From the IMG/VR virus record IMGVR_UViG_3300030372_004604, positions 1 to 60,299 of that record: 60,299 bases of DNA; one strand, given 5' to 3'. Below the pieces are notes generated by a model. That model saw only the letters and a list, made by a program, of their open reading frames with translations, made no database searches and was not told the origin of the DNA. The position numbers and the translations under genes are program-made. The DNA comes from a virus. Its lineage: Duplodnaviria > Caudoviricetes. Position 1 is the stretch's first letter; each line of letters begins with the position of its first letter. Below, piece by piece: positions 439-59,916 of the stretch.

Positions 439-1439
439 CCTAAACTCCTAAAAAAGGTTAAGTATTGTTCACCAATTATTTCAGGCTCATGCTGTTTTAA
501 ACTGTCAAAACCATTTTGTCTAAAATCTTGTAGCACGGTATCGCTCATAGGCATTTGCAGAACTTCAGCAAGTTGTTTTGCTGTTTCTATAACGATGCAG
601 TTATAGTTTTCTCGCATGTCATCAGGTGTGTCTAAAAGCCACTCCCTATGAATAATCGGAATACACCCTGCATTCCATGCTTCTAACCAAGTATATTGAG
701 TGCCACCCCCATCGCCTTTTATAAGCGTCATATCTACATTAAATATGTAGTCACACATTAGATTAAACGCATAGTCATTTTCTCTTGGGTAATGTGCTTT
801 AGACTGTACCCACTCTGGGTACTTAGGCACTATTTTAAATTTAGTATAGAGCCTGTTTTCAAAACCCCTTATTACGATCTTTTTGTTTTCAGGTAACAGC
901 CTATTTGCGTCTAACAAAATTTCCGTATGCTTGTCAAAATCAATACGAGAAGTGCTTATAGCTAAGTGTTTTCTAGATGCAAAAGGCAACTCTTTTTGTA
1001 CATAGGGGTGTCTTATAAACGTAGGTCTGTAAGGTAACAGTATAGAGTTGTTTGCCAAGGGTAAAGTTTCTACCCCTCTTTGTCTAATAACAACACACCT
1101 GTTCATATCCAACGGCTCTGGTAAGTTTTTTAATTCAGTAGGGTCGTGAACAACTATAAAAGCATTGCCGTCATGGTACAGGGTGTCTGTGGTTTTTTTA
1201 AAGTTTTTAGCTCCTGCTACGATTAACTTAACATTTGATCGGGCAAGAGCTTCTTCCATAGATATGTTTCTGTACCGTTTGTCATAACCAAAGTTTCTTG
1301 TTCTTTTTTCACTTCTAGGTCTAATTTTAAATAGGCTTACCTCTGCTCCTACTGCTTGCAATGTATCTATCAAATGAGAGGTGTAAGTAACCCACCCTCC
1401 ATAAGTATTAGGGCTGTTATAAAAAAGGTCTACTTTCAT
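435..1439 (-). CDS. GT-B fold (GT4-like) glycosyltransferase, candidate DNA-modifying enzyme
   Basis: N-terminal YGGW loop, STSRIDFDKH, and DGGGTQYTWLEAWNAGCIPII resembling the GT-B sugar-nucleotide binding motif; ATGA-coupled to both neighbours. Confidence 0.7.
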   Translation of the reverse strand: MKVDLFYNSPNTYGGWVTYTSHLIDTLQAVGAEVSLFKIRPRSEKRTRNFGYDKRYRNISMEEALARSNVKLIVAGAKNFKKTTDTLYHDGNAFIVVHDPTELKNLPEPLDMNRCVVIRQRGVETLPLANNSILLPYRPTFIRHPYVQKELPFASRKHLAISTSRIDFDKHTEILLDANRLLPENKKIVIRGFENRLYTKFKIVPKYPEWVQSKAHYPRENDYAFNLMCDYIFNVDMTLIKGDGGGTQYTWLEAWNAGCIPIIHREWLLDTPDDMRENYNCIVIETAKQLAEVLQMPMSDTVLQDFRQNGFDSLKQHEPEIIGEQYLTFFRSLG

Positions 1440-2377
1440 TGCACAACCCCTTGGGGCAATGGCTCACTGCTCTGTGTAAACTTACTGCGAGGTTTGCCTT
1501 GGCCTAATCGTACTCGTTCATACTTATCCCATTCACACAAGCTATGCTCTATAGTACGCATATCTATTTGGTCGGCAGGAACATGGTCACCCACAAGGTA
1601 TCCGTTACAAGGGTAATCTTTTGCAACCATTTGCAATAACTCTTGCATACCTTCGTTGGCTACCTCTTGAGTCATGCTTTTTGTTAAGGGCTTATCCCAA
1701 ATTCTATTCAACCCACGTTTTGCTCCAGGACCTGCATTGGCCCATGAGAACTTATCTACGGCATTTTTCAAAACAGGCGTGTAGTTTAAATCAGTTACAA
1801 CTTCGTAAGACATAAACCCACCACCTCCCCAACCCCTGTACTGTGATAATTTTTTATGGGTAGCTTGTAAGGATTGTGAAGACTGTGCAGAAGCAACAAT
1901 GTCTTCTGCATATTTATGTATTGGTTTAAGAAAATGGTCAACAACAACATCTGCTTTAGGTAATTTCAACCCTTGGTTTGTAATGATATACGCACCAGTG
2001 AAAGTACGCTTACCATCAGCTATCCTGTTTTTAATAAGCTGTTTAGTATATTCACCATCCCATGCAGATGTGCCAAGACTACTAACAAGCCTGACCCAAC
2101 CATGCTCTTCTGCAAATTCAATTGTGCCTACCATCCTAAACAAACAGCAATTGAAAATTATTTCATCGTGTGGCCTGTTATCGTTAGGTTTAGTCCAGTT
2201 GTTACGCATCCAAAGGGTAACCCTATCGTTTTCACGGAAGGGGTTTGTAAACTTATACTCTTGGAGTATGGGGTCTTCTGTCCATTCAGACCTTGGTACA
2301 CCCATGTTTCTCCGTTGGTATATGGCGTGTCTTTCATTTATCCAATAGAAAAACCTTTCTACGTTTTCCCTGTTCAT
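1436..2377 (-). CDS. aGPT-Pplase1-like (alpha-glutamyl/putrescinyl-thymine pyrophosphorylase clade 1) DNA base-hypermodification protein
   Basis: FFYWINERHAIY...WTEDPILQEYKFTNPFRENDR, FTGAYII, GFMSYEVVTDL, NAGPGAKRGL, IEHSLCEWDKY are characteristic of this family. Confidence 0.8.
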   Translation of the reverse strand: MNRENVERFFYWINERHAIYQRRNMGVPRSEWTEDPILQEYKFTNPFRENDRVTLWMRNNWTKPNDNRPHDEIIFNCCLFRMVGTIEFAEEHGWVRLVSSLGTSAWDGEYTKQLIKNRIADGKRTFTGAYIITNQGLKLPKADVVVDHFLKPIHKYAEDIVASAQSSQSLQATHKKLSQYRGWGGGGFMSYEVVTDLNYTPVLKNAVDKFSWANAGPGAKRGLNRIWDKPLTKSMTQEVANEGMQELLQMVAKDYPCNGYLVGDHVPADQIDMRTIEHSLCEWDKYERVRLGQGKPRSKFTQSSEPLPQGVVQ

Positions 2378-9736: not shown

Positions 9737-11176
9737 ATGCGTTACAAATTTAAATACAAACCATATAAGCATCAGCTAGATGCTTTAGAAAAGTCGTGGG
9801 ATAAAACCTTTTTTGCTCTGTTTATGGACATGGGTACAGGCAAATCTAAAGTATTAATAGATACGATTTCTATGCTTTACGATAAAGGTAAAATAGATTC
9901 TGCTCTGATTATCGCACCCAAAGGTGTGTACCGTAACTGGGAAAGAAAAGAACTGCCCACCCATTTACCCGATCATATACAGGCCAACATTGTTGTATGG
10001 TCGCCAGAAAAAACAAAAAAGAAACAAGCAGAGTTAGCTACGTTAAATGAACCGTCAGATAAACTGCAAATATTTTTAATGAATGTAGAAGCATTGTCCA
10101 GTAGCAGAGGGGTATGGTCTGCCTCACAATTTATACTGTGCCATAAAACAATGCTCGCTGTAGATGAAAGTACAACTATTAAATCTAAAACAGCGAACAG
10201 AACTAAAAGCCTTATAAAAATATCAAGAAACGCCCCTTACCGTAGGATACTTACAGGGTCACCTGTTACTAAATCACCGTTAGACCTATACACACAATGC
10301 GAGTTTTTAGAACATTATGTATTAGGGCATTCTTCGTTTTGGACATTCCAAAACCGTTATGCAAAATTGATACGCAAAACAATGGGAGCGCATTCATTTA
10401 ACCATATTGTAGGATACCAAAACCTAGAAGAGTTAAATGGTATAATAGAACCGTTTTCATTTAGAGTGCGTAAAGAAGATTGTTTAGACCTGCCTGACAA
10501 AGTGTATACAAAACGCAGTGTGGAACTCACTAAAGAACAACGTGTTCTGTACGATCAAATGAAACGCAATGCTGTATCCTTTATAGAAAACGAAGGCATT
10601 ATGTCTGCCTCTACAGTGCTAACTCAAATACTAAGGTTGCAACAAGTATGTTCTGGTTTTGCTAAACTGGAAGATGGGCGAATGATAAAAGTTCCCAACA
10701 ACAAGTTGCCTGAGTTACTATCTGTATTAGAGGAAACAGATGGTAAGGTAATCATTTGGGGTAACTTTACACATGACCTAGAACTGATACAGGAAGCCCT
10801 TATAAAAACATATGGGGCAGAAACAGTAGAGCTGTTCTATGGTAAAACTCCGGCAGAAGAACGGCAGTTAATTGTAGAGCGGTTCCAAGACCCTAACGAT
10901 CCATTGCGGTTTTTTGTGGGGCAACCCAGAACAGGGGGCTACGGACTTACTCTTACAGAAGCGCATACAGTTATATACTACAGCAACGGCTATGACCTTG
11001 AAATAAGGTTACAGAGCGAAGATAGAGCGCACCGTATAGGACAAACAAATAAAGTTACTTACATAGATATAACAGCAGAAAATACTGTAGACCAAAAGGT
11101 TATCCAAGCCCTGCGAAGCAAGATAGATATAAGTACAAAGGTACTAGCTGAAGGGTATAAAGAGTGGATAATTTAA
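9737..11176 (+). CDS. SNF2-family (SF2) helicase
   Basis: MDMGTGKS, VDESTTIK, LTGSP, GGYGLTLT, QSEDRAHRIGQ. Confidence 0.9.
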   Translation: MRYKFKYKPYKHQLDALEKSWDKTFFALFMDMGTGKSKVLIDTISMLYDKGKIDSALIIAPKGVYRNWERKELPTHLPDHIQANIVVWSPEKTKKKQAELATLNEPSDKLQIFLMNVEALSSSRGVWSASQFILCHKTMLAVDESTTIKSKTANRTKSLIKISRNAPYRRILTGSPVTKSPLDLYTQCEFLEHYVLGHSSFWTFQNRYAKLIRKTMGAHSFNHIVGYQNLEELNGIIEPFSFRVRKEDCLDLPDKVYTKRSVELTKEQRVLYDQMKRNAVSFIENEGIMSASTVLTQILRLQQVCSGFAKLEDGRMIKVPNNKLPELLSVLEETDGKVIIWGNFTHDLELIQEALIKTYGAETVELFYGKTPAEERQLIVERFQDPNDPLRFFVGQPRTGGYGLTLTEAHTVIYYSNGYDLEIRLQSEDRAHRIGQTNKVTYIDITAENTVDQKVIQALRSKIDISTKVLAEGYKEWII

Positions 11177-11835
11177 TACTTGGGGATAGCTCTGCTGTAA
11201 TTAAAACCTTTGCAGATGAGCAATTTGATACAGTGTTTACCTCACCCCCATACAATAGAAAAAGGAACGATAAGTATGAAGATTTTACTGATATTTCTGA
11301 CGATTATTTTAATTTTCTTGTGGAATCGATAAACCAGTGTTTACGAGTATGTAAGGGTAATGTTTATTACAACATACAAAAGAACTTTTATAATCGGGTA
11401 GAAATATACAAATTGTTTGGTCATTTTGCCGAACAAATAATAGAAACAATCGTTTGGAACAAAGCTAACCCAACTCCAGCAGGTGGTGATGCGGTTACTA
11501 ATTCTTACGAGTATATATTAGTATTGAGCAATAATAATACGGCATTAAAAGCAAACAATACATACACCAAAAATCATTTTTGTACGCCTGTGTATTCAGA
11601 AAACCCATACAAAAAACAACATAGGGCAGTCATGCACCCTAGAGCAGTAGAGTATATACTGCGATCTTTTTGTAAACCAAACGAAACTGTGCTTGACCCT
11701 TTTATGGGGACAGGAACAACAGGGGTTGTGTGTAAACAGTTTGGTATGACATTTACAGGTATTGAGTTAGTAGAAGAGTATTACAATATATCTAAACAAC
11801 AAATGAGTAGTTATACACAACCGTTCCTACTTTAA
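11164..11835 (+). CDS. DNA amino-methyltransferase (N4-C/N6-A, beta class)
   Basis: TSPPY catalytic motif precedes the DPFMGTGTT SAM-binding motif. Confidence 0.9.
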   Translation: MDNLILGDSSAVIKTFADEQFDTVFTSPPYNRKRNDKYEDFTDISDDYFNFLVESINQCLRVCKGNVYYNIQKNFYNRVEIYKLFGHFAEQIIETIVWNKANPTPAGGDAVTNSYEYILVLSNNNTALKANNTYTKNHFCTPVYSENPYKKQHRAVMHPRAVEYILRSFCKPNETVLDPFMGTGTTGVVCKQFGMTFTGIELVEEYYNISKQQMSSYTQPFLL

Positions 11836-44547: not shown

Positions 44548-44786
44548 AATTTCTTATATATCGATAATTTTTCAAACACAATGAACCTATAATCAATAAC
44601 AACCATAAAGGGGGGTAGGTCAACTGTTTAAGGATCCTCATAGTTGACTTTTTGTGAAATGTTTTTGGAACATATTGAAATGTTCAGAACAGGGTAAAGG
44701 GTGCTACTAATACCACCCTTTGTGCTCAGGGGGGGCCGGCAAAAACCGTGCCAGTTTTGCCGCACCAAAAATACGGGGTACCTTAT

Positions 44787-44815
44787 AAAAAAGGGGCCGG
44801 TAAAAAACCGGCCCC
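44787..44815 (-). terminator. Intrinsic terminator of the island gene
   Basis: GGGGCCGG-TTTTTTA-CCGGCCCC followed by TTTTTT. Confidence 0.8.
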
Positions 44816-44825
44816 AGTTAAAAAC

Positions 44826-45386
44826 CTACTTGGTTTTTGCGGTTGGCCCAACAACTTTAAGGGTAACAAAACTATTACCCCAAGTTGGGCTTTTAGGTGT
44901 AAACCCACCATTAAGCAAAGCCAATAAAACTACTGGGTTTTTATAACTTTGCCCGCCCGTTGGTATACCAAACTTGTTGGTATTGGCCCAAGCACTTGGC
45001 TTGTTGCCACAACTAACACTAGCATTAAGCCAGTTGTGCAAGTTAGTGGGCGCGTTAAGCGCGTGGTATAACATGGTAGCGCGTGGCCCATATACGCTTT
45101 TTAAACCCGTTGGGGTTTGGGCTGGCGTTGCGCCTACCATGTAACCGCCCATTTTTTTACAGGCTGGCCCACCACGCAAACCAAAGTTAATACTGTTATA
45201 CCCAATACCTTTATTTGGTATTATTTGCACATTGCTAGGTTTAGCCATTGCATTAGCCGTTAGCCAATTTTGGTAACTAATAAAGCATGGGCCGTTTTGG
45301 TAAATTAACGCCTTGCCCAAAGTTGCGCCAATGTTTAGTGCCGGTGCAGTGGTAAGCAACTGCGGTGCTGTTTTACTTAATGCCAT
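44826..45386 (-). CDS. 186-aa basic protein with no Asp or Glu; paralogue of 51936-52388
   Basis: TAAAGGGT RBS before ATG 45386; shares K.P.VLLALLNGG(F/Y).P.S..WG..(F/Y)V.L.V with its paralogue. Confidence 0.8.
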   Translation of the reverse strand: MALSKTAPQLLTTAPALNIGATLGKALIYQNGPCFISYQNWLTANAMAKPSNVQIIPNKGIGYNSINFGLRGGPACKKMGGYMVGATPAQTPTGLKSVYGPRATMLYHALNAPTNLHNWLNASVSCGNKPSAWANTNKFGIPTGGQSYKNPVVLLALLNGGFTPKSPTWGNSFVTLKVVGPTAKTK

Positions 45387-45453
45387 TTTGTATAACCCTT
45401 TAAAATGGTGGGGCCTTGGCCCCGTTGCGCTAGCCAATTGCTAACGTAACAAC

Positions 45454-45482
45454 ACGTTAGCACGTTGCTATATTAGTGTAAA
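45454..45482 (-). promoter_or_regulatory. Sigma70-type promoter of the island gene
   Basis: TTTACA-17 nt-TAACGT with TG extended -10; overlapped by the inverted repeat TGCTAACGT/ACGTTAGCA (45439-45462). Confidence 0.6.
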
Positions 45483-45820
45483 CCCCTATAGGCTATTTTT
45501 ATTTATGGGCATGTATGGCAGCATTTTAGTTGCCTAGGCAACTATTTTGGCCGTGACGCGACGCGACTTATGCACCCACAGAGGAGAACGCATGATCAAT
45601 CATTATCATATGTCCTCTCTCTTCGTAATCTCAATCTTGTACGTCTGTCCTCTCTCTTCGTAATCCTAATATGGGTCGCTGTACCACGCCAGTAGACACA
45701 CAACTACAAGACAAATAACAAATACCATTGGTCTATACCTTTGCTAGTTAACAATGGTTATTGTATACCCTAAACAAATAATCAAGGGTTGTCTTATGTT
45801 GTACTATTTGCTCTCATCAA

Positions 45821-45910
45821 TAACGATCAATAACGATCAATAACGATCAATAACGATCGCTAATGATCAATGCCGATCATCCATGATCAGTGCTGATCTA
45901 GATCAAGATC
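45821..45910. repeat. 10-bp-periodic GATC array
   Basis: GATC at 45825, 45835, 45845, 45855, 45865, 45875, 45885, 45895, then 45901 and 45907; first units are exact TAACGATCAA. Confidence 0.9.
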
Positions 45911-45983
45911 AATCATCATCTGTCATCGTCTCTCGGTCGTAATCTATAGTCCTCTCTCTATCGTAATCAATCATCGTCAATCA

Positions 45984-46451
45984 TCATCTCTCGGTCGTAA
46001 TCTCTCCGTCGTAATCATCCTTGTCATGACGATCCGAGGATGATAGAATATGATCAATCACTCCATGCCAGTCAAACGGTGACTCGCAACTCCAGTCCGG
46101 TATCAATGGTTCATGGACCTTGGCCTCTCCCATCTTAATCGCACGACCACCCCCAAATATATTCAGGGTAGAAGACGAAGGATGATGAACCAAGTTGTAG
46201 ACTTTGCCTTTATTCATGAAATATCTGGTTTGCCACGCAATTTGGTGAGGGCGTAGCGCGATATTTTTTAATGACTTTAACCTGTGGACTTTCAATTCTA
46301 GCCAAAAAGCCTGACCATTCAGTATGCCATGCAAGTCAGGGATTCCTGGAGTTGCCCAAGACTCTAAGCGTGTCCAAAACACGCCTAGGTCCTGAGTTCC
46401 TTCTCTTAGTTTATACCAAAGTTTACTTTCAGGTTTACTTGTCAAGCCCAC
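45984..46451 (-). CDS. PD-(D/E)XK nuclease, VRR-NUC/resolvase-like
   Basis: PE..LW, RLES...GIPDL, WLELKV, RPHQIAW. Confidence 0.75.
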   Translation of the reverse strand: MGLTSKPESKLWYKLREGTQDLGVFWTRLESWATPGIPDLHGILNGQAFWLELKVHRLKSLKNIALRPHQIAWQTRYFMNKGKVYNLVHHPSSSTLNIFGGGRAIKMGEAKVHEPLIPDWSCESPFDWHGVIDHILSSSDRHDKDDYDGEITTER

Positions 46452-46933
46452 CTCAACCCAAGCTCGGGCATGTATTGGTTAAAGCTGTCGCGGTCATACT
46501 CACTTATGCCACAAACCCTGTGGTATGTTTCGTCAATAGTAATAACGTACAGGTAATCAATGTCACCATGTATGCCATTGGTTATCTCATACTTGCCTGT
46601 CAACTGCATAGGCTCGTAATGTGTTTGCTTGTGCCTCGGGTTCAGTATTTTACGCACCCCGTCCCATGCTTCATGCTTAACTAACAGGTCAGCATAGAAC
46701 TCTAATAAACGGCTTGGCTCGGCAAACAACTTTTTTATACCCTCATTAGTGTGTGGGGCTAACTGTTCATCGCCCTGTTTTACAAACTCTTTGTAGTTGT
46801 CTGCATACCAACGTATAGCCTCAGCATATTTTTTTAACTCAGGTCTCACACTACTGGGGTAACCATCGTAATGTCTGTAAATGTACTTAACTTGGTCACC
46901 GCACTCTAAAACTATATTACATCTTGTACCCAT
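46442..46933 (-). CDS. Conserved hypothetical phage protein
   Basis: MGTR.NI...IYRHYDGYP; GAGAAAGGGT RBS. Confidence 0.7.
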   Translation of the reverse strand: MGTRCNIVLECGDQVKYIYRHYDGYPSSVRPELKKYAEAIRWYADNYKEFVKQGDEQLAPHTNEGIKKLFAEPSRLLEFYADLLVKHEAWDGVRKILNPRHKQTHYEPMQLTGKYEITNGIHGDIDYLYVITIDETYHRVCGISEYDRDSFNQYMPELGLRWA

Positions 46934-47013
46934 TTGTCTAACCCTTTCTCGGTTATTTATTAACTATAATTAGTATAGCAACAGCGTTTACACTGAGTAA
47001 CCCTTTTTATGTC

Positions 47014-47556
47014 TTATTTTGTCTTGTCATCCGCTTGGTTTTCTATAAGCACATTGCCGTCAGCAACAGCGGCAAGTGCAGGGAACTCCTTTTGGAGTTT
47101 CTGTATTTCTTTCATCACTTGCTCCCTGTCCATTTGGTCTATTTTTCCATGTAGTATTTCTTTACGATCAATGTAGAGACCTGCAGCTTGCCCTCGTGAT
47201 TTTTCGGCGGCGACAGCTGCGGCGAAGTTACCGCCTGTCATAGCTTCGTCTCTGATTTCAGCTAACTTTTTTACATGACTTTCAAAGCTGACCTCATACT
47301 TTTTGGCTAACTCGCCTTTTAGTTCACCTATTCTCGCAACTACATGTGGGTAGCGTTGACCATTTAATAATTGCGATGCAATGGCGTGTGCGGATTTTAC
47401 TGAGTACCCTGCCCTAACTGCGGCCTCTGTTTGGCTTATGTCCTCACATACATACAATCTTGCAAACTCTTCTTGCTTGGGTGTTATGTTCTTTTCTGTT
47501 CGTGGGTTGGCTACAATTTCAAGCGTTGGCTTGTGAGTAGCTTTTGCTAAAACCAT
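47014..47556 (-). CDS. terS: Terminase small subunit
   Basis: TPKQEEFA..Y...SQTEAA.RAGYS..SA...ASQLL HTH signature. Confidence 0.8.
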   Translation of the reverse strand: MVLAKATHKPTLEIVANPRTEKNITPKQEEFARLYVCEDISQTEAAVRAGYSVKSAHAIASQLLNGQRYPHVVARIGELKGELAKKYEVSFESHVKKLAEIRDEAMTGGNFAAAVAAEKSRGQAAGLYIDRKEILHGKIDQMDREQVMKEIQKLQKEFPALAAVADGNVLIENQADDKTK

Positions 47557-47580
47557 TGTGCTTATCCTCGTTGCGTTGCT

Positions 47581-47806
47581 ACTTTGCTATAATAGGAGTA
47601 ATTACGAAAAGTTACTAGTTCAAAAAAATTTTAAATTCGTCGCGCGTACCGAGAAAGTTACTGACTTATTGAACCATTGATCGTGTACGATATCTCAATA
47701 CCTCTGCTAAGTCGTTGTTTATATGTGTATAGTCATATATTGTATATTATGAAATCTTAAAAAACCATTTCATCATAATTCGTATTTACCCCTATTATAC
47801 AAAGTT
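47581..47806. other. Origin-like intergenic element, copy B
   Basis: ACTTTGCTATAATAGG ... CGTCGCGCGTACCGAGAAAGTT ... CCCCTATTATACAAAGTT. Confidence 0.55.
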
Positions 47807-47935
47807 GCGTTTGTTGATAGTTTTTATGGACTATTTTAAGGCCCTTGTGATGGGTTTAAATTAATTTGGTATAGTAGCATACCCTTATTAAGTACGAGTG
47901 TCGTATGGGTGCTTTTTTTGGTGATTGTTGGTGGT

Positions 47936-47963
47936 AAAAAAATGAGGGGCAATATGCCCCCCA
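47936..47963 (-). terminator. Intrinsic terminator ending the cassette array
   Basis: GGGGCA..GCCCC hairpin followed by a T7 run on the minus strand. Confidence 0.55.
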
Positions 47964-47973
47964 CTTTCAAGGG

Positions 47974-48357
47974 TTAACTGGGTATATGGTCAAGTTTAAT
48001 ATGGTCAGCTAAATGCTGTTTAATTTGAGCGCAAACTGTTTTGCACTGGTGGTCGGTGGTTATGGTGTGTACTTGGCTAATATAGTCCATGCTTGCTGTG
48101 TCCATGTACAACTGTGGGTCATCATAAATGTGGTATACCATCACGGTAACTAGGCCACGCACACTCGTAATAATTAGGCGTGTGGTACTGTCAACTTGGT
48201 GTATGTATGCCTCATTGTTATTGTTGCCTGTCGGTGTTATTTGGCTATAGCCTGTTGCGTCGCTGTTTGGGCCACCTAGTAAATGGTCGTGGTGTGCGTC
48301 AAGGTGCGCTAACTTTAACTCGGCAAGTACTTTATCAAACATTGTTGCTTGTGTCAT
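47974..48357 (-). CDS. Hypothetical early protein (paralogue of 48446-48814)
   Basis: GAGAAAGGGT RBS; shared TRL..TS ... DY...V..IT...QC...V..IK. Confidence 0.7.
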   Translation of the reverse strand: MTQATMFDKVLAELKLAHLDAHHDHLLGGPNSDATGYSQITPTGNNNNEAYIHQVDSTTRLIITSVRGLVTVMVYHIYDDPQLYMDTASMDYISQVHTITTDHQCKTVCAQIKQHLADHIKLDHIPS

Positions 48358-48361
48358 TTGT

Positions 48362-48446
48362 AAACCCTTTCTCGGTTTAATTGGTACTATATAAATGGTA
48401 GCCCAAGCCGTAATCAAGGGCTACCATTATTACCTCTTTTGTGCTC
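48362..48446 (-). promoter_or_regulatory. Cassette element (ACAAAAGA box, TAGCCC..GGGCTA stem, TAnnnT, CCGAGAAAGGGT)
   Basis: One of at least 7 similar intergenic copies. Confidence 0.7.
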
Positions 48447-48814
48447 TAGTTTACGGCACTTAGAGTTTCTGGCATACGTCCAAGTTTTGCAAACGTAGGG
48501 TTAGACAACATACTTTTAATGAGAACTACGGTGGCGTCACATTGGTCTGCATTAGTAATTACATACACATGCGTCACATAGTCACCATCACCGTCCATTG
48601 TATTGTAAAACGTCACAATTACGTTTTGGCTTTGATCTTGTTTATTAGTAATTGAGGTGACGAACAACCGTGTATTGTCATTTACAGTGTATGAAAAAGC
48701 ATTTTTTTCAATACTGTCATTTGGTACAGGTAGCCATGTTTGATCATAAAAGTCATTTTCACTAGGGTCAGCTAACCCTGTGTCTTTTAAAAATTTTTCA
48801 AACAAAGTATTCAT
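48446..48814 (-). CDS. Hypothetical early protein
   Basis: AAGAAAGGAAG RBS; paralogue of the adjacent gene. Confidence 0.7.
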   Translation of the reverse strand: MNTLFEKFLKDTGLADPSENDFYDQTWLPVPNDSIEKNAFSYTVNDNTRLFVTSITNKQDQSQNVIVTFYNTMDGDGDYVTHVYVITNADQCDATVVLIKSMLSNPTFAKLGRMPETLSAVN

Positions 48815-48819
48815 GGTAC

Positions 48820-48904
48820 TTCCTTTCTTGTTTAATTTTTACTACTATAAGCAGTATAGCCCCCAACATTGTCAGGGGCTACTACTGTTATTTCTTTTGT
48901 TTTC
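48820..48904 (-). promoter_or_regulatory. Cassette element
   Basis: ACAAAAGA ... TAGCCCCTGACAATGTTGGGGGCTATACT. Confidence 0.7.
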
Positions 48905-48912
48905 GCGTAGGT

Positions 48913-49004
48913 TGGCAGGGGTGGTAGGATTTGAACCTACTGGCTAGTGTCAACTAGCCTTGGTTTTGGAGACCAATGTGCCACGCCGTCTGCACCGCAC
49001 CCCC
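48913..49004 (-). tRNA. tRNA-Trp(CCA) with an atypical long variable arm
   Basis: Acceptor AGGGGTG/CACCCCT, G73, encoded CCA; D stem GTGC/GCAC; anticodon stem TTGGT/ACCAA with loop CTCCAAA; T arm GTAGG-TTCAAAT-CCTAC. Confidence 0.85.
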
Positions 49005-49011
49005 TCGTTGC

Positions 49012-49503
49012 TTAACCTAAAATAAAATCGTAATCCTCAAGTTCATCAACGTGTACCACTACCATCTTGTTAAAATAAGTATCAAGGGTAGGTGTCAGTA
49101 CATGTTTTACTGTGTCAGGTGGTAAAAAGTAAAACTCCAAGCGTACATCAATACCGTACAGTGCCGTGGTGTCACGGTCGGTAGGCGGTATGTGGTAGCT
49201 AATTTTCAAATCCTGTTCAAGTTTGGTACTTTTGTCACGCAACAAACTTAACTCATTAACAACTTTGTCAACGTTTTCCCTGTTAACTGCACCGCCCTCA
49301 GTAGGGTAATGCTTTATGGGGGTGTAGTGATCTGTAGCAATGTATTGCTTTATGGGTAGGACAGTGTGCATAAAATCTGTAATAGCTTTGTCAATTGCAG
49401 GAAAAGCAAGTTGATTTACCCTACGCTCATATGGGCAGGTTACCTCTTCAATGTAATTGCTATAAGGAACAAAATTTTCAAGATGTTTGTGTAACTGTGT
49501 CAT
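49012..49503 (-). CDS. Hypothetical early protein
   Basis: Preceded by a cassette element and RBS. Confidence 0.7.
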   Translation of the reverse strand: MTQLHKHLENFVPYSNYIEEVTCPYERRVNQLAFPAIDKAITDFMHTVLPIKQYIATDHYTPIKHYPTEGGAVNRENVDKVVNELSLLRDKSTKLEQDLKISYHIPPTDRDTTALYGIDVRLEFYFLPPDTVKHVLTPTLDTYFNKMVVVHVDELEDYDFILG

Positions 49504-49506
49504 GTG

Positions 49507-49592
49507 TAAACCCTTTCTCGGTTTGTTGTGTACTGTTTATATAGTAGCCCCCAAAATTATCAGGGGCTACCATTATTGTGTCTTTTGTGTTC
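49507..49592 (-). promoter_or_regulatory. Cassette element
   Basis: GAACACAAAAGA ... GTAGCCCCTGATAATTTTGGGGGCTACTAT ... CCGAGAAAGGGT. Confidence 0.7.
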
Positions 49593-50168
49593 TTAGTGCA
49601 GTGTTGTTTGATCACCGCCTTGTGATACCTGCGTCATAATGTGCAGGTCAGGTATAGGCATTTCATCAGTAGGTTTGTCCCACCATACTTTAGCATCATA
49701 CTTATTAAGTAGCCAATCATCAGGCATTTTTAAACAACTAAAGTCAGGGGTGTAATCAGGGCAAGCAGGTTTTTGCCATACAACTGCGAGGTTCCATATC
49801 TCAAGGTTGCCCTGTTTGTTTATAAAGTCCCACCTAGTAGCATGGCTAAAAACAGGTAAGTCTTGGGGTATTTTTACGATGGTTGTACCATTATCGTCAG
49901 CCGTAGCAAACTTACTTAAACTGAGAGGTTTTTTAGCATCAACCTCAATAAATATTTTACCATCATGTTTTTTAGCTAAATGAGCAACTGTATATGCTTG
50001 GGACAACATGAGAACAAATGATTCATCGTTAATGGTCCCTTCAAAATACCAAATGGCTATTTGTTTTAAGACATCAGGGTACAGTTCAGGTTTTACTACA
50101 TAATGTGGTTGCAGAACTCGGTTAGCTTCCGCATATGTAAAAATGTTACGGTCATATTTTACTGTCAT
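49593..50168 (-). CDS. Hypothetical early protein (paralogue of 50463-50930)
   Basis: Shared P..LKQ, LAKK..G.IF, NLAVVWQ. Confidence 0.7.
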   Translation of the reverse strand: MTVKYDRNIFTYAEANRVLQPHYVVKPELYPDVLKQIAIWYFEGTINDESFVLMLSQAYTVAHLAKKHDGKIFIEVDAKKPLSLSKFATADDNGTTIVKIPQDLPVFSHATRWDFINKQGNLEIWNLAVVWQKPACPDYTPDFSCLKMPDDWLLNKYDAKVWWDKPTDEMPIPDLHIMTQVSQGGDQTTLH

Positions 50169-50462
50169 ATATCAGCCCTTTCTTGGCTTGTTACTACTGT
50201 ATAAATACTACCCCACCGTTTTATCAACAACTACCTTTAATTTATCTTTTATGTTCTTATCATAGTTACCTGCCCCACGGCAAAATTGTATATACGATAA
50301 TTTTTACAGACGTTTTTAAAGGCCCTGTGACGTTATCAATACATTTATGTATAGGTATATACCCTTTATATATTGAGTACATCGTAGGGCATTTTTTTAT
50401 CCGATCAATAATGATTGCTCTGCGTAAAAAATAGGGGGACATGAAGCCCCCCTAATTATATG

Positions 50463-50930
50463 TTACTGCCACACGACAGCGAGGTTCATAAAAGTCCATG
50501 GTCCTCGGCCATCTGTTGCCCTTACCGTCACTACATAGGTATTGGTCGGTGTGCCTCGGTTGGCGTTACTTGCAATCACAACTCGTCTTTGTGGTTGGCT
50601 TAGTCCGCACCAGTTGGGCGTTTCCCATCGCACTATTTCGCTACCTTGCGTGTCAGGGTAAAACCCAGTGCTATGTATCGGGGCAGGGGCATCGTTGTGC
50701 CAAAATATGTCACCCTTGGTTTTTTTAGCCAAGGCAACAAGATCTCTAAACAACCCTGCATATATATAGTTTTCGTAGGTAGTATCACCTCCTGCAAGTG
50801 GGCTGTCTGCAAACATGTCCCACTCTTCGGGGTCCATGCTATTGTTTTCCGTTAACAACACATCAGCTTCTTCCTGCTTCAGTGCGTAGGGGCAGTATTT
50901 AGGTTGAACAAATTTTGGGTACTGTGTCAT
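50463..50930 (-). CDS. Hypothetical early protein
   Basis: RBS before ATG 50930; ends NLAVVWQ; terminator at about 50426-50453. Confidence 0.7.
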   Translation of the reverse strand: MTQYPKFVQPKYCPYALKQEEADVLLTENNSMDPEEWDMFADSPLAGGDTTYENYIYAGLFRDLVALAKKTKGDIFWHNDAPAPIHSTGFYPDTQGSEIVRWETPNWCGLSQPQRRVVIASNANRGTPTNTYVVTVRATDGRGPWTFMNLAVVWQ

Positions 50931-50934
50931 GTGT

Positions 50935-51019
50935 AAACCCTTTCTCGGTTTAGTTATTACTATAAATAGTATAGCCCCCAACATTGTCGGGGGCTATGGC
51001 TATTTAGTCTTTTGTGGTC
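50935..51019 (-). promoter_or_regulatory. Cassette element
   Basis: CACAAAAGA ... ATAGCCCCCGACAATGTTGGGGGCTATACT ... CCGAGAAAGGGT. Confidence 0.7.
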
Positions 51020-51447
51020 ATGTGTAATTGCACAAAGTATGCTGAACCTGCGCTTGACATAAAGCAGTTATTCCAGCTTAACTCAACGATTTTGTAATTG
51101 TAGGTGTGAAACACTTTAGCTTCGTGGTATACACCACCCTTTTCATCAAGGCGGTACTTATCATACTTGTTGCCCCTACCCATTTCACATAACAGGTAAT
51201 TGTTCATGCCCTGTATGTGGCCGTCTAGGTTATCGCGGTAAATGGCATGGTCATGTATTTCACGGTCATGGTAATACCATTCCTCATACTTGGGCAGTAC
51301 TGTCTGTATAAACGGCACAAGTAATTTTTCAACAGTGTTGCCTCTTGCTTTTTCTTCATCACTGCCGAACTCCCATGCAAACTGGTTGTTAACCCATGTT
51401 TCCGTGGTAGTTGCCTGAAATTGTTTGGTACTGGTTAAATCAAACAT
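51004..51447 (-). CDS. Hypothetical early protein
   Basis: RBS before ATG 51447. Confidence 0.7.
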   Translation of the reverse strand: MFDLTSTKQFQATTTETWVNNQFAWEFGSDEEKARGNTVEKLLVPFIQTVLPKYEEWYYHDREIHDHAIYRDNLDGHIQGMNNYLLCEMGRGNKYDKYRLDEKGGVYHEAKVFHTYNYKIVELSWNNCFMSSAGSAYFVQLHMTTKD

Positions 51448-51450
51448 ATG

Positions 51451-51536
51451 TAAACCCTTTCTCGGTTTAGTTAGTACTATATAAATAATAGCCCCTAACA
51501 ATGTCAGGGGCTATAGTTATTGTATCTTTTGTATCC
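51451..51536 (-). promoter_or_regulatory. Cassette element
   Basis: ACAAAAGA ... ATAGCCCCTGACATTGTTAGGGGCTATTAT; core identical to the copy at 51892-51930. Confidence 0.7.
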
Positions 51537-51557
51537 ATGCAAATCTGCAAAACCTTT

Positions 51558-51860
51558 TTATCGTATAAAACATATTTTGTCTAATGTTCCATTACCTTTA
51601 ACTTTGCGAGCACTTGCTGAACTATTCCCCATTGTAACAACCCATGTGTCAGCTAAATCGTGTGCGTGTTCAATACTTTCAGCGTCTAACTCTACAAAAC
51701 GATCAGGTACTTTCATGTCTCCATGCGTTTCTACATGAACTACATATTTAAAATGCTCTCCTAATAATTTATATTTAGCTTTACGAGCAACTCTTCCTTC
51801 AATTGCAATCTTAGAAGAAACTAAAAAATCAATTGTGTAACCATTTATAGCCATGACCAT
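51558..51860 (-). CDS. Hypothetical early protein
   Basis: Preceded by a cassette element. Confidence 0.65.
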   Translation of the reverse strand: MVMAINGYTIDFLVSSKIAIEGRVARKAKYKLLGEHFKYVVHVETHGDMKVPDRFVELDAESIEHAHDLADTWVVTMGNSSASARKVKGNGTLDKICFIR

Positions 51861-51930
51861 TAACCCTTTCTCGGTTTATTTGTTAATATAAAAATAATAG
51901 CCCCTAACAATGTCAGGGGCTATAGTTATT
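51861..51930 (-). promoter_or_regulatory. Cassette element
   Basis: ATAGCCCCTGACATTGTTAGGGGCTATTAT ... CCGAGAAAGGGT. Confidence 0.7.
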
Positions 51931-51935
51931 TAGTC

Positions 51936-52388
51936 CTATTTGCTCACAGTTAATTTAACGTATGGCGTCCCCCAGTACTTACTGCTAGGAGAGTAACCGC
52001 CATTTAACAGGGCGAGCAGGACATTGGGCTTTTTGCGTGAATGTCCTAGCTTGGCACATTGGTTAAGGATAAACCCTAACCGTTTATCACCATTTATGCC
52101 TGTTAGAAAAGCTGATTGAATGAAGTGCCGTACACCTCCTTTCTTACCACCCCATCCAAAAGGTACGTCCTCAGGGCTTTGTACAAGGCATTGTATTTCA
52201 ACATTGTTTTCGTTGCCCCCTGCTTCAACTCTCACAAAACTTATAATATCATCATAAGTAAGTTCTTCGCCGTTAAGCATTAACTCAGCAATAACTGGCT
52301 TTTTCTTGGCAACTGCTTTTACTATTTTTTTAGAGGATGCCTTGGCAGTGCTAGGAGCCTCATTTTTTAACGCTACTACTTTTGTCAT
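51936..52388 (-). CDS. Hypothetical protein, ordinary-composition paralogue of the island gene
   Basis: KKPNVLLALLNGGYSPSSKYWGTPYVKLTV. Confidence 0.75.
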   Translation of the reverse strand: MTKVVALKNEAPSTAKASSKKIVKAVAKKKPVIAELMLNGEELTYDDIISFVRVEAGGNENNVEIQCLVQSPEDVPFGWGGKKGGVRHFIQSAFLTGINGDKRLGFILNQCAKLGHSRKKPNVLLALLNGGYSPSSKYWGTPYVKLTVSK

Positions 52389-52448
52389 AATATCCACCTT
52401 TCTATGTGGGTTACAATTAAGTTATGGCTACACTATAAAAGTCAACTT

Positions 52449-52769
52449 TTAAGTACGCAACCCTTTTTTAGTCCTAATTGTTCGTGCTTCCCGAATATCT
52501 TTTAAAAGTTTTGTCAACACCGCACCTTGTTTGTACTTTTTTCTTGCGATTCTTTTTAATGCTTCTCGTATTGTATAGTTAGGAGGCAACCCATTGTGGA
52601 TCCAACCATGTACTGTGACAGGAGTTACTTTTGGTATTTCAATTAAATCGGCTATTGCTTTCACACCACCAAGCCTCCTGACGATTGAAAGTGCGATCGG
52701 GTCTCCGATTTCAACTGCTTTTTCTTCATTTTTTATTAATTCTTTTTTTAGTTGTTTTGGGGTCAACAT
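52449..52769 (-). CDS. Putative Cro-like HTH DNA-binding protein
   Basis: IVRRLGGVKAIADLI....TPVTVHGWIHNGLP. Confidence 0.55.
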   Translation of the reverse strand: MLTPKQLKKELIKNEEKAVEIGDPIALSIVRRLGGVKAIADLIEIPKVTPVTVHGWIHNGLPPNYTIREALKRIARKKYKQGAVLTKLLKDIREARTIRTKKGLRT

Positions 52770-52889
52770 GTGTACGCTCTCTCTCGTCGTAATCTCACAA
52801 AAAAGCCCCCGACAAGGGAAAAGGCAAACTTGTCGGGGGAGTTCCAGGGAGTGGTAGACTAAGGATGAGCTCAGCCTTGCCACACTTTA

Positions 52890-53021: not shown

Positions 53022-53057
53022 AGTAAGGGGATGCTCCTTTGCTTTAAGAGTTGTGAA

Positions 53058-58617: not shown

Positions 58618-58969
58618 ACTTATCTTCAAACCTTTGTATGTCGTCTTCGCCTAAATAAGAACCATGTTGCACTTCAATTACAACTAAAGGTTGAAGCCCA
58701 ATATTAACCAAACTATGTATCCACCTTTTTGGTATGGTTATACATTCTTGCACTGAAAGTTGTGTTGTTTTCAATTTAAAAAGTTTAGGACCTCTAACCA
58801 CGTTAGCTGTTCCATGAACAACCACCCAGTTTTCTGCCCTATGTTCGTGTGCCTGTAAAGACAACTGCTCTCCTGCATTCACCAAAATGTTTTTTACTTT
58901 GTAATGAAGCCCTTCCTCTAACACTTGGTAATGGCCCCAAGGTTTTTCTACCACCTTCTCATCAACCAT
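58604..58969 (-). CDS. Cupin, mannose-6-phosphate isomerase type II C-terminal-like
   Basis: KPWGHY.VL, LSLQ.H.HRAENWVVV.G, IEVQ.GSYLGEDDIQRFED.YGR. Confidence 0.85.
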   Translation of the reverse strand: MVDEKVVEKPWGHYQVLEEGLHYKVKNILVNAGEQLSLQAHEHRAENWVVVHGTANVVRGPKLFKLKTTQLSVQECITIPKRWIHSLVNIGLQPLVVIEVQHGSYLGEDDIQRFEDKYGRA

Positions 58970-59916
58970 TCTACACACGCCTTTCTCCATGCTAAGTCTT
59001 CAATGTTTTCTGCATGGCGTACTGCCTCATCTATATTTTTTGCCTTCCAAGCACCCCAAGATAAATCCATGGGCGTAAGCACTTGATCAAAGTAAGAGTT
59101 AGTATATGTATTGGTTTCATTGTTCATCCAGCGTTGTAACTCTTTATCAAAACAAGCAGGTTCATCAACCAATGGTTTAGGGTTGTAATTCCTATTATCA
59201 CCTAAATGCAGGTAAGGATCGTAATCAGGCTCAATGTTTTTTACTTTTTCTAAAGTATCTACATAAGCGTGTAAATTATTACTAAACTGATAATATGTAC
59301 CTACCGCGCAATCTATCCTTGCCGCCATGTATTCTAACAGTACAGACATATGAACAGCGTTTGCTCCATATGCCCCCCATATCATATCATTGCTCCTATT
59401 ACATACGGTCATGTTTAACGTGTTGTTACGAACCCAAAACATGATTTGCGTATTGCATGGGTGGTCTTTACCAGTGTTTTCTATAGAAAAATCTTTTATA
59501 GGATCCCACATAGAAACAACAGTGCGGCGATCGTTTTCATAATGAAGCAAGCGATGAACGGCTATTTCTAGTTGGTCTTTGCCAAACCAGTTTTTCCATC
59601 GGTAACCATATGCTCCATTAATAGTTACACCGTCATCGCTATAGCTACTCATCCTACCATTGTAGTTAGAAATCCACTCAACTTCATTTTTACCTGCTAA
59701 CATCCAAAACGATTCCATTAAATGGAAGTAAGGGTTAGCGTCACGCATAGGGTAAAACAATACTCTTTCCCTGCTATGGCTGTAAGAAGTCATAACGGGG
59801 CAAGGAAACTCTAATGCTTTACCATTGCGTGTGTCTACCTCAACACCTTTAGTTTCTAATGCCTGTACTGCTAGGTACAATGCTTCACTTACATTTCTTG
59901 CATTTATATGTTGCAT
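58948..59916 (-). CDS. Thymidylate-synthase homologue, likely dUMP hydroxymethylase
   Basis: RDANPYFHL.E..W.L.G, GAYG.RW, DHPCN (catalytic Cys), NRSND..WGAYGAN with Asn at the dUMP-specificity position. Confidence 0.8.
   Translation of the reverse strand: MQHINARNVSEALYLAVQALETKGVEVDTRNGKALEFPCPVMTSYSHSRERVLFYPMRDANPYFHLMESFWMLAGKNEVEWISNYNGRMSSYSDDGVTINGAYGYRWKNWFGKDQLEIAVHRLLHYENDRRTVVSMWDPIKDFSIENTGKDHPCNTQIMFWVRNNTLNMTVCNRSNDMIWGAYGANAVHMSVLLEYMAARIDCAVGTYYQFSNNLHAYVDTLEKVKNIEPDYDPYLHLGDNRNYNPKPLVDEPACFDKELQRWMNNETNTYTNSYFDQVLTPMDLSWGAWKAKNIDEAVRHAENIEDLAWRKACVEWLMRRW

What the first reader, a model, noticed from the sequence alone, without database searches (positions are those of the whole stretch)
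46442..51860. Graded TC avoidance on the coding strand of putative early genes
Seen by manual count of plus-strand GA (= coding-strand TC): 1 in 46442-46933, 1 in 47974-48357, and about 6 each in 49012-49503 and 51004-51447. Very roughly 20-30 would be expected per gene. Ser is mostly AGY here, while structural genes use TCT freely. Coding-strand GA persists mainly where Asp/Glu require it. Inference: the selection that shaped the island also acts, less strictly, on genes read from parental DNA, and is relaxed in late genes read from newly replicated DNA.
Basis: partly seen in the sequence, partly recalled or inferred. Interest (0 to 1): 0.7.

Follow-up and report, generated by a model that had tools for sequence, protein, structure and literature searches.

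The report
Phage genes purged of TC dinucleotides
In this marine phage, selection has removed almost every TC from the coding strand of a few small genes beside a GA/TC-free island, which points to a still unknown activity that reads this two-letter signal on the transcript or the displaced DNA strand.

Summary
A fifth gene, 50463-50930, has 4. Together the five genes hold 18 TC against 82 expected from their amino acids and the genome's codon usage (z -9.5). They still fall below expectation when each gene keeps its own codons.

The pattern is specific to genes and not a smooth gradient. Ordinary genes lie between the depleted ones, including TerS and a paralog of one depleted gene. The avoidance follows the direction of transcription: the two plus-strand genes also avoid coding-strand TC. 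Coding-strand GA is barely affected. Orthologs at 60-98% identity keep the depletion. Across relatives it varies with the GA/TC-free island.

The phage encodes a 5-hmdU DNA kinase. However, relatives with the kinase lack the avoidance, and so do two phages with mapped T-hypermodification.

Best reading (0.4): purifying selection against UC in the mRNA, or TC on the non-template strand, imposed by a dinucleotide-specific agent that acts on single strands, probably a host agent. The main rival (0.22) is avoidance of the phage's own hypermodification sites. Expression timing was not tested.

The parts
44727..45554 (.). Island with no GA and no TC on either strand (context for the finding)
   Evidence: 829-base gap between consecutive GA/TC occurrences (44726 to 45555). 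The next longest such gap in the window is 66.
44826..45386 (-). Island gene. The 186-aa protein has no Asp or Glu. It belongs to a core family and is a paralog of 51936-52397.
   Evidence: TC 0 against 21 expected and GA 0 against 15 expected. 0 of 3000 shuffles reach the observed count.
46442..46933 (-). TC-depleted gene, 163 aa, no known family
   Evidence: TC 1 against 14.1 expected. 1 of 3000 shuffles. Orthologs at 60-98% identity carry 2-4 TC.
47974..48357 (-). TC-depleted gene, 127 aa, paralog of the TC-normal gene 48446-48814
   Evidence: TC 1 against 19.2 expected. Paralogy by blastp, E 1.4e-4.
49012..49503 (-). Partly TC-depleted gene, 163 aa
   Evidence: TC 6 against 16.5 expected. 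8 of 3000 shuffles. Orthologs at 82% identity carry 4 TC.
50463..50930 (-).
   Evidence: TC 4 against 16.2 expected. 53 of 3000 shuffles.
51004..51447 (-). Partly TC-depleted gene, 147 aa
   Evidence: TC 6 against 15.0 expected. 3 of 3000 shuffles.
47014..47556 (-). Small terminase subunit, interleaved, TC normal (internal control)
   Evidence: Pfam Terminase_2, 2.6e-13. TC 16 against 18.3 expected. 15-17 TC in every ortholog seen.
45984..46451 (-). Nuclease-like core gene. It overlaps the end of 46442-46933 by 10 nt and is TC-rich (internal control).
   Evidence: PHROG hits to helicase, endonuclease and resolvase families. TC 27 against 19.9 expected.
48446..48814 (-). TC-normal paralog of 47974-48357 (internal control)
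   Evidence: TC 10 against 13 expected. Paralogy.
46940..46995 (-). Copy 1 of the repeated leader element (partial)
   Evidence: One coding-strand TC, at its far edge.
48363..48456 (-). Copy 2 of the ~94-nt repeated element (12-bp-stem hairpin, AT-rich stretch, CCGAGAAAGGGTT ribosome-binding site)
   Evidence: 0 coding-strand TC.
48821..48914 (-). Copy 3 of the repeated element. It precedes a TC-normal gene.
   Evidence: 0 coding-strand TC.
49509..49602 (-). Copy 4 of the repeated element
   Evidence: 0 coding-strand TC.
50936..51029 (-). Copy 5 of the repeated element
   Evidence: 0 coding-strand TC.
51453..51546 (-). Copy 6 of the repeated element
   Evidence: 0 coding-strand TC.
51862..51955 (-). 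Copy 7 of the repeated element. It precedes a TC-normal gene.
   Evidence: 0 coding-strand TC.
1436..2377 (-). 5-hmdU DNA kinase (candidate writer of a T modification)
   Evidence: Pfam HMUDK_hel, 2e-51, 175.5 bits against a cut-off of 25.
58948..59916 (-). Thymidylate-synthase homolog (candidate dUMP hydroxymethylase)
   Evidence: Pfam Thymidylat_synt, 1.7e-22. All NCBIfam hits fall below the equivalog cut-offs.
9737..11835 (+). The only two plus-strand genes (SNF2 helicase and a CcrM/DpnA-like DNA methylase). They served as the strand-orientation control.
   Evidence: T before C at codon junctions is 13 of 38, against 140 of 204 before other bases (p 9e-5).

Best explanation
Five small accessory genes lie upstream of the terminase region. 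Each sits in a cassette bounded by hairpins and carries the same strong ribosome-binding leader. Long-term purifying selection has removed the dinucleotide UC from their transcripts, which is the same as TC on the non-template DNA strand. The removal used synonymous routes: Ser TCN became AGY, NTC became NTT, and NNT before C became NNC.

The most likely cause is an agent with dinucleotide-level specificity that acts on single-stranded nucleic acid in the sense orientation. That means either the mRNA itself or the non-template strand displaced in the transcription bubble. The agent would be met while these genes are being expressed. Because close relatives differ in the strength of the effect without any matching difference in gene content, the agent is more likely encoded by the host (an immunity nuclease, deaminase or ADP-ribosyltransferase) than by the phage. 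The same pressure acts weakly on all genes of this lineage. It acts absolutely, and on both strands, on the island gene next door.

Shown: the depletion, its statistical strength, its link to transcription direction, its conservation and its variation between lineages. Inferred: that the substrate is single-stranded, that the agent belongs to the host, and that these genes are expressed early.
For: 1. The signal is at dinucleotide level and independent of reading frame. TC is removed at codon positions 1-2, 2-3 and 3-1 alike: pooled 2, 6 and 10 observed against 15.9, 13.0 and 52.1 expected. No longer motif appears. All NTC and TCN contexts are depleted to 0.18-0.54.
2. It follows the coding strand and not an absolute strand. 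The two plus-strand genes have T before C at 13 of 38 junctions, against 140 of 204 before other bases.
3. The complementary dinucleotide is not comparably avoided. Removable coding GA is 40 against 52.8 expected. Genome-wide, G3 before A is 0.20 in G000 and 0.21 in G002.
4. Selection maintains it. Orthologs of 46442 at 60-98% identity all carry 2-4 TC, while the adjacent TerS carries 15-17. The G000 and G001 orthologs differ at 42 of 160 aligned residues and at 20 synonymous codons, and still carry 1 and 2 TC.
5. Per-ORF TC density is bimodal in relatives. 38 of 926 ORFs lie below 0.25 TC per 100 nt and only 2 lie between 0.25 and 0.5.
6. It varies by lineage without a matching phage gene. 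No G000 protein is present in all avoiders and absent from the non-avoiders. All 8 relatives that are at least 90% complete carry the kinase.
7. All 7 leader elements also lack coding-strand TC but keep GA, so the TC-free zones match transcription units.
8. Precedents exist for host immunity enzymes with this kind of specificity on single strands. CmdT ADP-ribosylates A in GA dinucleotides of ssRNA (PMC11618068, passages). DarT2 modifies the T that precedes C in TCTC motifs of ssDNA (PMC12945103, passage).
Against: - No agent with plain UC or TC specificity is identified here, and the host is unknown.
- The island next door lacks TC on both strands. A purely sense-strand agent does not explain that without a second assumption: antisense or two-strand exposure, or a second agent specific for GA.
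- Genes on what is probably the same transcript differ sharply. Gene 45984-46451 overlaps the TC-free gene 46442-46933 and has 27 TC.
- Two genes behind the same leader element are TC-normal: 48446 and 51558.
- The canonical DarT2 motif does not fit, since 6 of the 18 residual TC have T at position -2.
- The CmdT target GA is kept in these genes.
- Expression timing and transcript boundaries were not measured.
Confidence: 0.4

Rival explanations
1. Avoidance of the phage's own modification site. The phage replaces T with 5-hmdU. Its 5-hmdU DNA kinase pathway then hypermodifies the T of TC. Genes that must be read from fully modified parental DNA have shed TC.
For: - The kinase is present (HMUDK_hel 2e-51), with a thymidylate-synthase homolog and an HD 5'-deoxynucleotidase-like protein.
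- HTVC023P-type phages are reported to carry thymidine-hypermodification clusters (PMC9599517, passages).
- Hypermodification is dinucleotide-specific elsewhere. It was inferred at TG/TC in M6, ViI and phiW-14 (PMC6449724, passages). It occurs mainly at TG and less at TC in SH-Ab 15599 (PMC13458397, passages).
- Phosphorylating hmU templates with 5-HMUDK cut E. coli RNA polymerase output to 37% of natural DNA (PMC6457204, passages).
- At codon junctions the base removed is the T, replaced by C.
Against: - The avoided T lies on the non-template strand. TC on the template strand (coding GA) is kept.
- All 8 relatives that are at least 90% complete have the kinase, yet G002 and G005 show no avoidance.
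- M6 and SH-Ab 15599 show no TG- or TC-depleted gene. The lowest ratios are 0.78-0.80 for TG and 0.63-0.73 for TC over 231 ORFs, and there are no long gaps for these dinucleotides.
- The genome as a whole is poor in GA/TC (rho* 0.78), which is odd if the modification is protective.
- No aGPT-Pplase or amino-acid:DNA transferase passed its cut-off. ADDT scored 17.6 bits against 26.2.
Confidence: 0.22
2. A double-strand-level agent for which one clean strand is enough. Examples are a frequent nickase or a modification-dependent restriction enzyme that needs sites on both strands. Coding constraints then decide which strand is cleaned, because removing coding-strand TC costs no amino-acid change.
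For: - Every TC-containing codon and every NNT|C junction has a synonymous escape, while coding GA needs Asp or Glu (direct from the genetic code).
- The island, where both strands are clean, paid that price. Its protein has no Asp or Glu, while TC/GA-normal homologs have them at aligned positions.
- These phages do use site avoidance. G007 has 0 GCGC, 0 GGCC and 1 CCGG.
Against: - Lineages exist in which the island gene is only GA-free (G007/L066: GA 0, TC 6) or mainly TC-free (G004: TC 0, GA 2). The two strands therefore behave independently.
- Genome-wide, only coding TC is low at junctions. Freely removable coding GA is not.
- No such enzyme is known to me with a two-base site.
Confidence: 0.1
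3. An ordinary property of translation, RNA folding or composition. Candidates are codon adaptation of highly expressed genes, keeping the purine-rich ribosome-binding site unpaired, or recent import from a TC-poor donor.
For: - The five genes have their own codon style, with C-ending codons at 0.53-0.61 against 0.15-0.30 in the structural genes.
- They share a GA-rich leader that UC-rich stretches could pair with.
- They are accessory genes, with homologs only in the closest relatives.
Against: - The preference for C-ending codons is reversed only where it would create TC (NTC 0.07).
- Junction TC is depleted, which no tRNA effect explains.
- Two genes behind the same leader are TC-normal.
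- The likely capsid gene block is TC-enriched, at ratio 1.4.
- Orthologs keep the state through 29-40% protein divergence.
- No donor with genome-wide TC-free genes was seen among 926 ORFs of relatives.
Confidence: 0.06
4. Escape from Rho-dependent termination, since Rho reads YC dinucleotides on nascent RNA.
For: Rho recognises series of CC or UC dinucleotides, and avoidance of Rho shapes coding-strand composition in some bacteria (PMC13323073, passages). The effect here is linked to the sense strand.
Against: UC was largely replaced by CC. CC is 128 against 74 expected, so UC plus CC totals 146 against 156 expected. The coding strand became richer in C, 0.213 against 0.173 in the rest of the genome.
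Confidence: 0.03

Closest known systems
Restriction-site avoidance in phage genomes (recalled textbook knowledge: T7 and many others). Seen here in relatives: 0 GCGC and 0 GGCC in G007.
   Same: Selection purges a short sequence signal from phage DNA so that a sequence-specific enzyme finds no target. The strength differs between lineages.
   Different: The signal here is a dinucleotide and not a 4-8 bp site. It is purged from one strand defined by transcription direction, and only from particular genes.
APOBEC3 footprints: TC depletion in some animal viruses. The link to virus genomes is recalled. The TC preference of the ssDNA deaminase A3B was seen in the abstract of 10.1101/750877 in the listing.
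   Same: The same dinucleotide, the same logic of a strand exposed as single-stranded DNA, and depletion on one strand.
   Different: Those footprints are modest (this comparison is recalled). Here the ratio of observed to expected falls to 0.05-0.37 in single genes. T before C is replaced by C, and TT is not enriched overall (173 against 187). No bacterial deaminase is implicated by any search.
Host immunity enzymes with very short targets on single strands: CmdT (GA in ssRNA; PMC11618068) and DarT2 (the T before C in TCTC or TNTC of ssDNA; PMC12945103).
   Same: Dinucleotide-scale specificity, single-stranded substrate and an anti-phage role. GA and TC are exactly the two dinucleotides missing from the island.
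   Different: The five genes keep GA. The residual TC show no bias against T at position -2. No escape from these systems by recoding came up in the passages I read.
Thymidine hypermodification through 5-hmdU DNA kinase (M6, ViI, phiW-14, SH-Ab 15599; PMC8989533, PMC6449724, PMC13458397)
   Same: The kinase gene is present, and the pathway selects T by the following base (TG/TC).
   Different: Two of the characterised phages (M6 and SH-Ab 15599) show no gene-level avoidance of their target dinucleotide; ViI and phiW-14 were not analysed here. The modification of this phage is unknown.
Purine bias of genes through avoidance of Rho (PMC13323073)
   Same: Selection on the sense strand against a pyrimidine dinucleotide in nascent RNA.
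   Different: CC, the other Rho target, is enriched here.

Membership tests
Thymidine hypermodification system (5-HMUDK pathway) | 5-hmdU DNA kinase | tested here: met
   PF18723, 2e-51, 175.5 bits against a cut-off of 25. Also found in 9 of 10 relatives' records. The one miss is a record that is 53% complete.
Thymidine hypermodification system (5-HMUDK pathway) | dUMP hydroxymethylase that supplies 5-hmdUTP | tested here: inconclusive
   A thymidylate-synthase homolog is present (PF00303, 1.7e-22). All NCBIfam thymidylate-synthase models score below their cut-offs. Methylase and hydroxymethylase were not told apart.
Thymidine hypermodification system (5-HMUDK pathway) | A transferase that replaces the (pyro)phosphate (aGPT-Pplase or amino-acid:DNA transferase) | tested here: inconclusive
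   The only hit is a sub-threshold ADDT match inside the kinase protein, 17.6 bits against 26.2. The flanking genes 435-1439 and 2378-3049 have no Pfam or NCBIfam hit. 40 proteins were scanned against Pfam out of the 88 ORFs called, so other genes were not scanned.
Thymidine hypermodification system (5-HMUDK pathway) | Hypermodified T in virion DNA, and its sequence context | not testable with these tools
   Only assembled contigs of public runs were available, with no raw reads.
Restriction-site avoidance | The avoided word is a recognition site of 4 bp or more, usually palindromic, and absent from both strands | tested here: not met
   All NTC and TCN contexts are depleted with no longer motif. 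Only one strand is affected.
Deaminase (APOBEC-like) mutational footprint | TC is lost to TT, so TT rises as TC falls | tested here: not met
   TT is 173 against 187 expected and CC is 128 against 74 expected. At junctions T is replaced by C. Selection to avoid deaminase hot spots is not excluded by this result.
Rho (YC) avoidance | Both UC and CC are reduced on the sense strand | tested here: not met
   UC plus CC is 146 against 156 expected, and CC is enriched at z +8.3.
Escape from a CmdT-like mRNA ADP-ribosyltransferase | GA is removed from the transcript | tested here: not met
   For the five genes GA is 143 against 157 expected. It is met only for the island gene, GA 0 against 15 expected.
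Escape from a DarT2-like ssDNA ADP-ribosyltransferase | Preferential loss of TNTC | tested here: not met
   6 of the 18 residual TC in the five genes have T at position -2 (contexts listed), which is no lower than the T content. A variant enzyme with plain TC specificity is not excluded.
Early (host-takeover) gene class | Transcribed first after infection | not testable with these tools
   RNA-run contigs cannot rank genes. In the distant relative HTVC027P the early genes are all of unknown function (PMC12753301, passages). That paper's gene table is a supplement, which is closed.

The most novel reading that the evidence does not exclude
Some marine bacteria carry a so far undescribed immunity enzyme that marks or cuts single-stranded nucleic acid at the bare dinucleotide TC/UC, possibly with a second enzyme for GA. 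This phage lineage answers with a set of 'immune-by-sequence' first-response genes recoded to contain no target. In the island gene the recoding went as far as deleting every Asp and Glu from the protein. The TC-free genes would then be the phage's counter-defence genes, and each TC-free and TC-normal paralog pair would be a protected copy beside an unprotected one.
Probability: 0.3. Interest if true: 0.85.

Novelty: new variant of a known kind. Interest (0 to 1): 0.72.

Why it matters
Phages are known to shed restriction sites. A two-letter word removed from one strand of chosen genes, held for as long as the proteins have diverged by 30-40%, is a far stronger and more specific footprint.

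It gives a sequence-only way to detect an unseen enzyme that reads a dinucleotide, whether a host defence or the phage's own DNA modification. It also picks out the genes whose expression the phage cannot afford to lose. The clade is abundant in marine viromes: 503 TerL relatives were found in IMG/VR. Its natural variants with a full, half or absent signal provide ready-made controls for experiments.

If the cause is the phage's own T-hypermodification, this would be the first sign that such modification constrains which genes can be read. If it is a host enzyme, it would point to a new class of defence target. I found no description of this in three full-text searches.

Tried and rejected
1. 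Reads. Public runs are held only as contigs. Laying three RNA runs and one DNA run on 42000-60299 gave no usable depth, ends or base differences at TC. It cannot show expression, timing or modification.
2. Function of the depleted genes. None of the five has a Pfam family. PHROGs gave only families of unknown function.
3. Island protein. The Atlas search gave nothing. The AlphaFold model has pLDDT 77.2. Foldseek found nothing at E of 0.001 or better. The best VIA-align match has Z 4.0, and many winged-helix proteins appear at Z 2.5-3.1, which is too weak to use.
4. Longer motif. No context preference was found around avoided or residual TC.
5. Protection test. I asked whether TC-containing palindromes are spared from avoidance. 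They are not: TCGA is 27 against 90 expected and GATC is 136 against 157, while many TC-free palindromes are also low. The test is uninformative.
6. Gene-content correlate. No G000 gene tracks avoidance across six relatives. The DNA methylase occurs only in G000 and G001.
7. Other dinucleotides. In relatives without the island, no other dinucleotide shows a comparable gap.
8. Control phages. M6 and SH-Ab 15599 show no avoidance. The first 50 kb of HTVC027P shows no GA- or TC-free stretch. Its kinase status was not tested.
9. Downstream gradient into TerL and portal. Rejected as a link to the island, because G002, which has no island, shows the same ratios of 0.62-0.64. Only TerL of G004 (0.36) and G007 (0.45) stand out.
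10. End-resection and replication-strand models. Rejected because the plus-strand genes follow their own coding strand.
11. Promoters. The sigma-70 scan found no more promoter-like sites than shuffles do, 42 against 44.9. The leader element has no canonical -35/-10 spacing by eye.

Full report
WHAT THE WINDOW IS

The window is a whole virus record of 60,299 bp, rated complete. All genes but two lie on the minus strand. It is a distant relative of the HTVC023P-type marine phages: TerL and portal DNA are 63-65% identical to HTVC027P, HTVC023P and 023Pt_psg01.

Pfam finds the following:
- a 5-hmdU DNA kinase (1436-2377, 2e-51)
- a thymidylate-synthase homolog (58948-59916)
- an HD 5'-deoxynucleotidase-like protein
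- PolA, an AEP primase and a UvrD-like helicase
- a small terminase (47014-47556)
- on the plus strand, an SNF2 helicase and a small DNA methylase, nearest to CcrM and DpnA among solved structures

THE OBSERVATION

A fifth gene, 50463-50930, has 4.

Three of these genes were first called with upstream extensions that are really a repeated leader. The true starts are the ATGs at 48357, 50930 and 51447.

With amino-acid sequences fixed and codons drawn from genome usage, the five genes should hold 82 TC. They hold 18 (z -9.5). All three codon phases are hit. Even when each gene's own codons are only shuffled among synonymous sites, 1, 1, 8, 53 and 3 of 3000 shuffles reach the observed count.

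The cleanest control is internal. These genes prefer C-ending codons in the NAY, NCY and NGY boxes (0.61, 0.53, 0.53), but use NTC in 6 of 82 NTY codons (p 6e-18). T at position 3 is nearly absent before a codon that starts with C, at 5 of 58, against 133 of 270 before other bases.

SHAPE OF THE PATTERN

The pattern is not a smooth gradient. Depleted genes alternate with ordinary ones:
- the nuclease-like gene 45984-46451, which overlaps the TC-free gene 46442-46933 and has 27 TC
- TerS, with 16
- 48446-48814, with 10
- 51558-51860, with 8

Gene 47974-48357 (1 TC) and its neighbour 48446-48814 (10 TC) are paralogs (E 1.4e-4). The island gene and 51936-52397 (13 TC) are also paralogs.

Seven copies of a ~94-nt element separate the genes. 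It consists of a hairpin with a 12-bp stem, an AT-rich stretch and the leader CCGAGAAAGGGTT. Six of the seven copies have no coding-strand TC and the seventh (46940-46995) has one, at its far edge; all seven keep GA. The TC-free zones therefore run from leader to stop codon, like transcription units.

WHICH STRAND

Removable GA on the coding strand is only mildly low, 40 against 52.8, compared with 84 against 92.9 in seven neighbouring genes. Genome-wide, T before C at codon junctions is 0.46 against about 0.74 before other bases. G before A shows nothing comparable.

The two plus-strand genes avoid TC on their own coding strand, at 13 of 38 against 140 of 204 (p 9e-5). The effect therefore follows the direction of transcription. 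It concerns the mRNA, the non-template strand, or GA on the template strand. Replication-strand and end-resection models are out.

RELATIVES

503 IMG/VR stretches encode a TerL relative, and 80 loci were kept.

The gene just upstream of TerL belongs to one core family (alignment of 32 sequences). In many loci it lies in a stretch of 600-860 bp with no GA and no TC. Of 926 ORFs of at least 80 aa on the TerL strand, 38 have fewer than 0.25 TC per 100 nt and only 2 lie between 0.25 and 0.5.

The states differ by lineage:
- both dinucleotides absent: G000, G001
- TC absent and GA nearly absent: G004, G008
- GA absent and TC only reduced: G007/L066
- neither absent: G002, G005

Where GA is absent, Asp and Glu at aligned positions are replaced.

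Six whole relatives were compared. Depleted small genes occur only in G000 and G001. The genome-wide junction deficit is strong in G000, G001 and G008, moderate in G004, and weak in G002, G005 and G007.

Orthologs of 46442 at 60-98% identity carry 2-4 TC. Orthologs of 49012 carry 4. TerS always carries 15-17. In one contig the island-family gene is TC-normal (17 TC) while the small genes remain poor. The two phenomena are therefore related but separable.

THE HYPERMODIFICATION LEAD AND ITS CONTROLS

The kinase makes an attractive link. Hypermodified T was inferred at TG/TC in M6, ViI and phiW-14 (PMC6449724). It was shown mainly at TG in SH-Ab 15599 (PMC13458397). Kinase-treated hmU templates are transcribed poorly by E. 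coli polymerase (PMC6457204).

Several results speak against it:
- The kinase is in 9 of 10 relatives' records, including those without avoidance.
- M6 and SH-Ab 15599 have no TG- or TC-poor gene among 231 ORFs and no long gaps.
- The avoided T is on the strand the polymerase does not read.

I keep it as the main rival at 0.22.

OTHER AGENTS

- Rho reads UC and CC (PMC13323073), but CC rose as UC fell.
- A pure deaminase footprint would raise TT, and it did not. Selection to avoid a TC-specific ssDNA deaminase would, however, give exactly the substitutions seen.
- CmdT (GA in ssRNA) and DarT2 (the T before C in ssDNA) show that host defences with targets this short exist. Neither motif fits the five genes.
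- The TC preference of T4 endonuclease IV and of DddA is recalled only; no call supports it.

WHAT STAYS OPEN

These points remain unknown: expression timing, transcript ends, the chemistry of the DNA, the host, and the function of every depleted gene. Supplements were closed, including the gene-timing table of the HTVC027P transcriptome paper.

VERDICT

The same selective signal as in the island is present, relaxed in the structural genes. It is strand-oriented and gene-specific, and it is not explained by hypermodification alone.

The best reading is evasion of a TC/UC-specific agent that acts on the sense single strand (0.4). It is a new variant of motif avoidance and is directly testable.

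Noticed in passing
window 45560-46020: Directly upstream of the island lies the opposite extreme: 61 plus-strand TC in 45501-46000 against 37.5 expected. It holds ten GATC between 45825 and 45907, the first eight at exact 10-bp spacing inside a 7-copy tandem repeat. It also holds four copies of a CT-rich 19-mer and a 213-nt stretch without TT. It could be a packaging or replication site.
   Followed up: partly
window 44826-45386 and 51936-52397: The island protein has no Asp or Glu and carries 16 Lys and 3 Arg in the 203-aa ORF call. It belongs to a core family with two copies per genome. The model has pLDDT 77 and no convincing match to a known fold.
   Followed up: partly
relatives G007, G002 (loci L085-L087, L097-L100): Classical restriction-site purging. 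G007 has 0 GCGC (63 expected), 0 GGCC (79 expected) and 1 CCGG (49 expected). G002 has 8 GGCC (64 expected) and 5 CCGG (39 expected). In the window itself TCGA is 27 against 90 expected.
   Followed up: no
window 48404-49567: One contig of an RNA-library run joins 48404 to 49567, skipping 1162 bases with 16 other letters between. The joint falls at two copies of the repeated leader element. This suggests that cassettes are gained or lost by recombination between leaders in a related strain (depth 9, single contig).
   Followed up: no
relative G004 16520-17983 and G007 18958-20418 (contig coordinates): The TerL gene itself is TC-depleted in two relatives, 23 against 63.5 and 24 against 53.9, with normal GA. 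In the window and in G002 its ratio is about 0.64.
   Followed up: partly
window 11164-11835: A 223-aa DNA methylase nearest to CcrM (GANTC) and DpnA occurs only in G000 and G001 among seven genomes. Its target is unknown. The window holds 90 GANTC and 136 GATC.
   Followed up: partly
relatives G001 36204-36753, G002 19148-19708, G007 1274-1758 (contig coordinates): Stretches of 480-560 bp without GG on one strand, 15-19 times the mean spacing. Not examined.
   Followed up: no
   Followed up: no
relative G008, contig ends (29-460 and 58614-59042): The same TC-free gene and the same 68-aa neighbour appear at both ends of the contig. This suggests an assembly overlap of a circularly permuted or concatemeric genome, although the record is classed as linear. 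I did not align the two ends.
   Followed up: no
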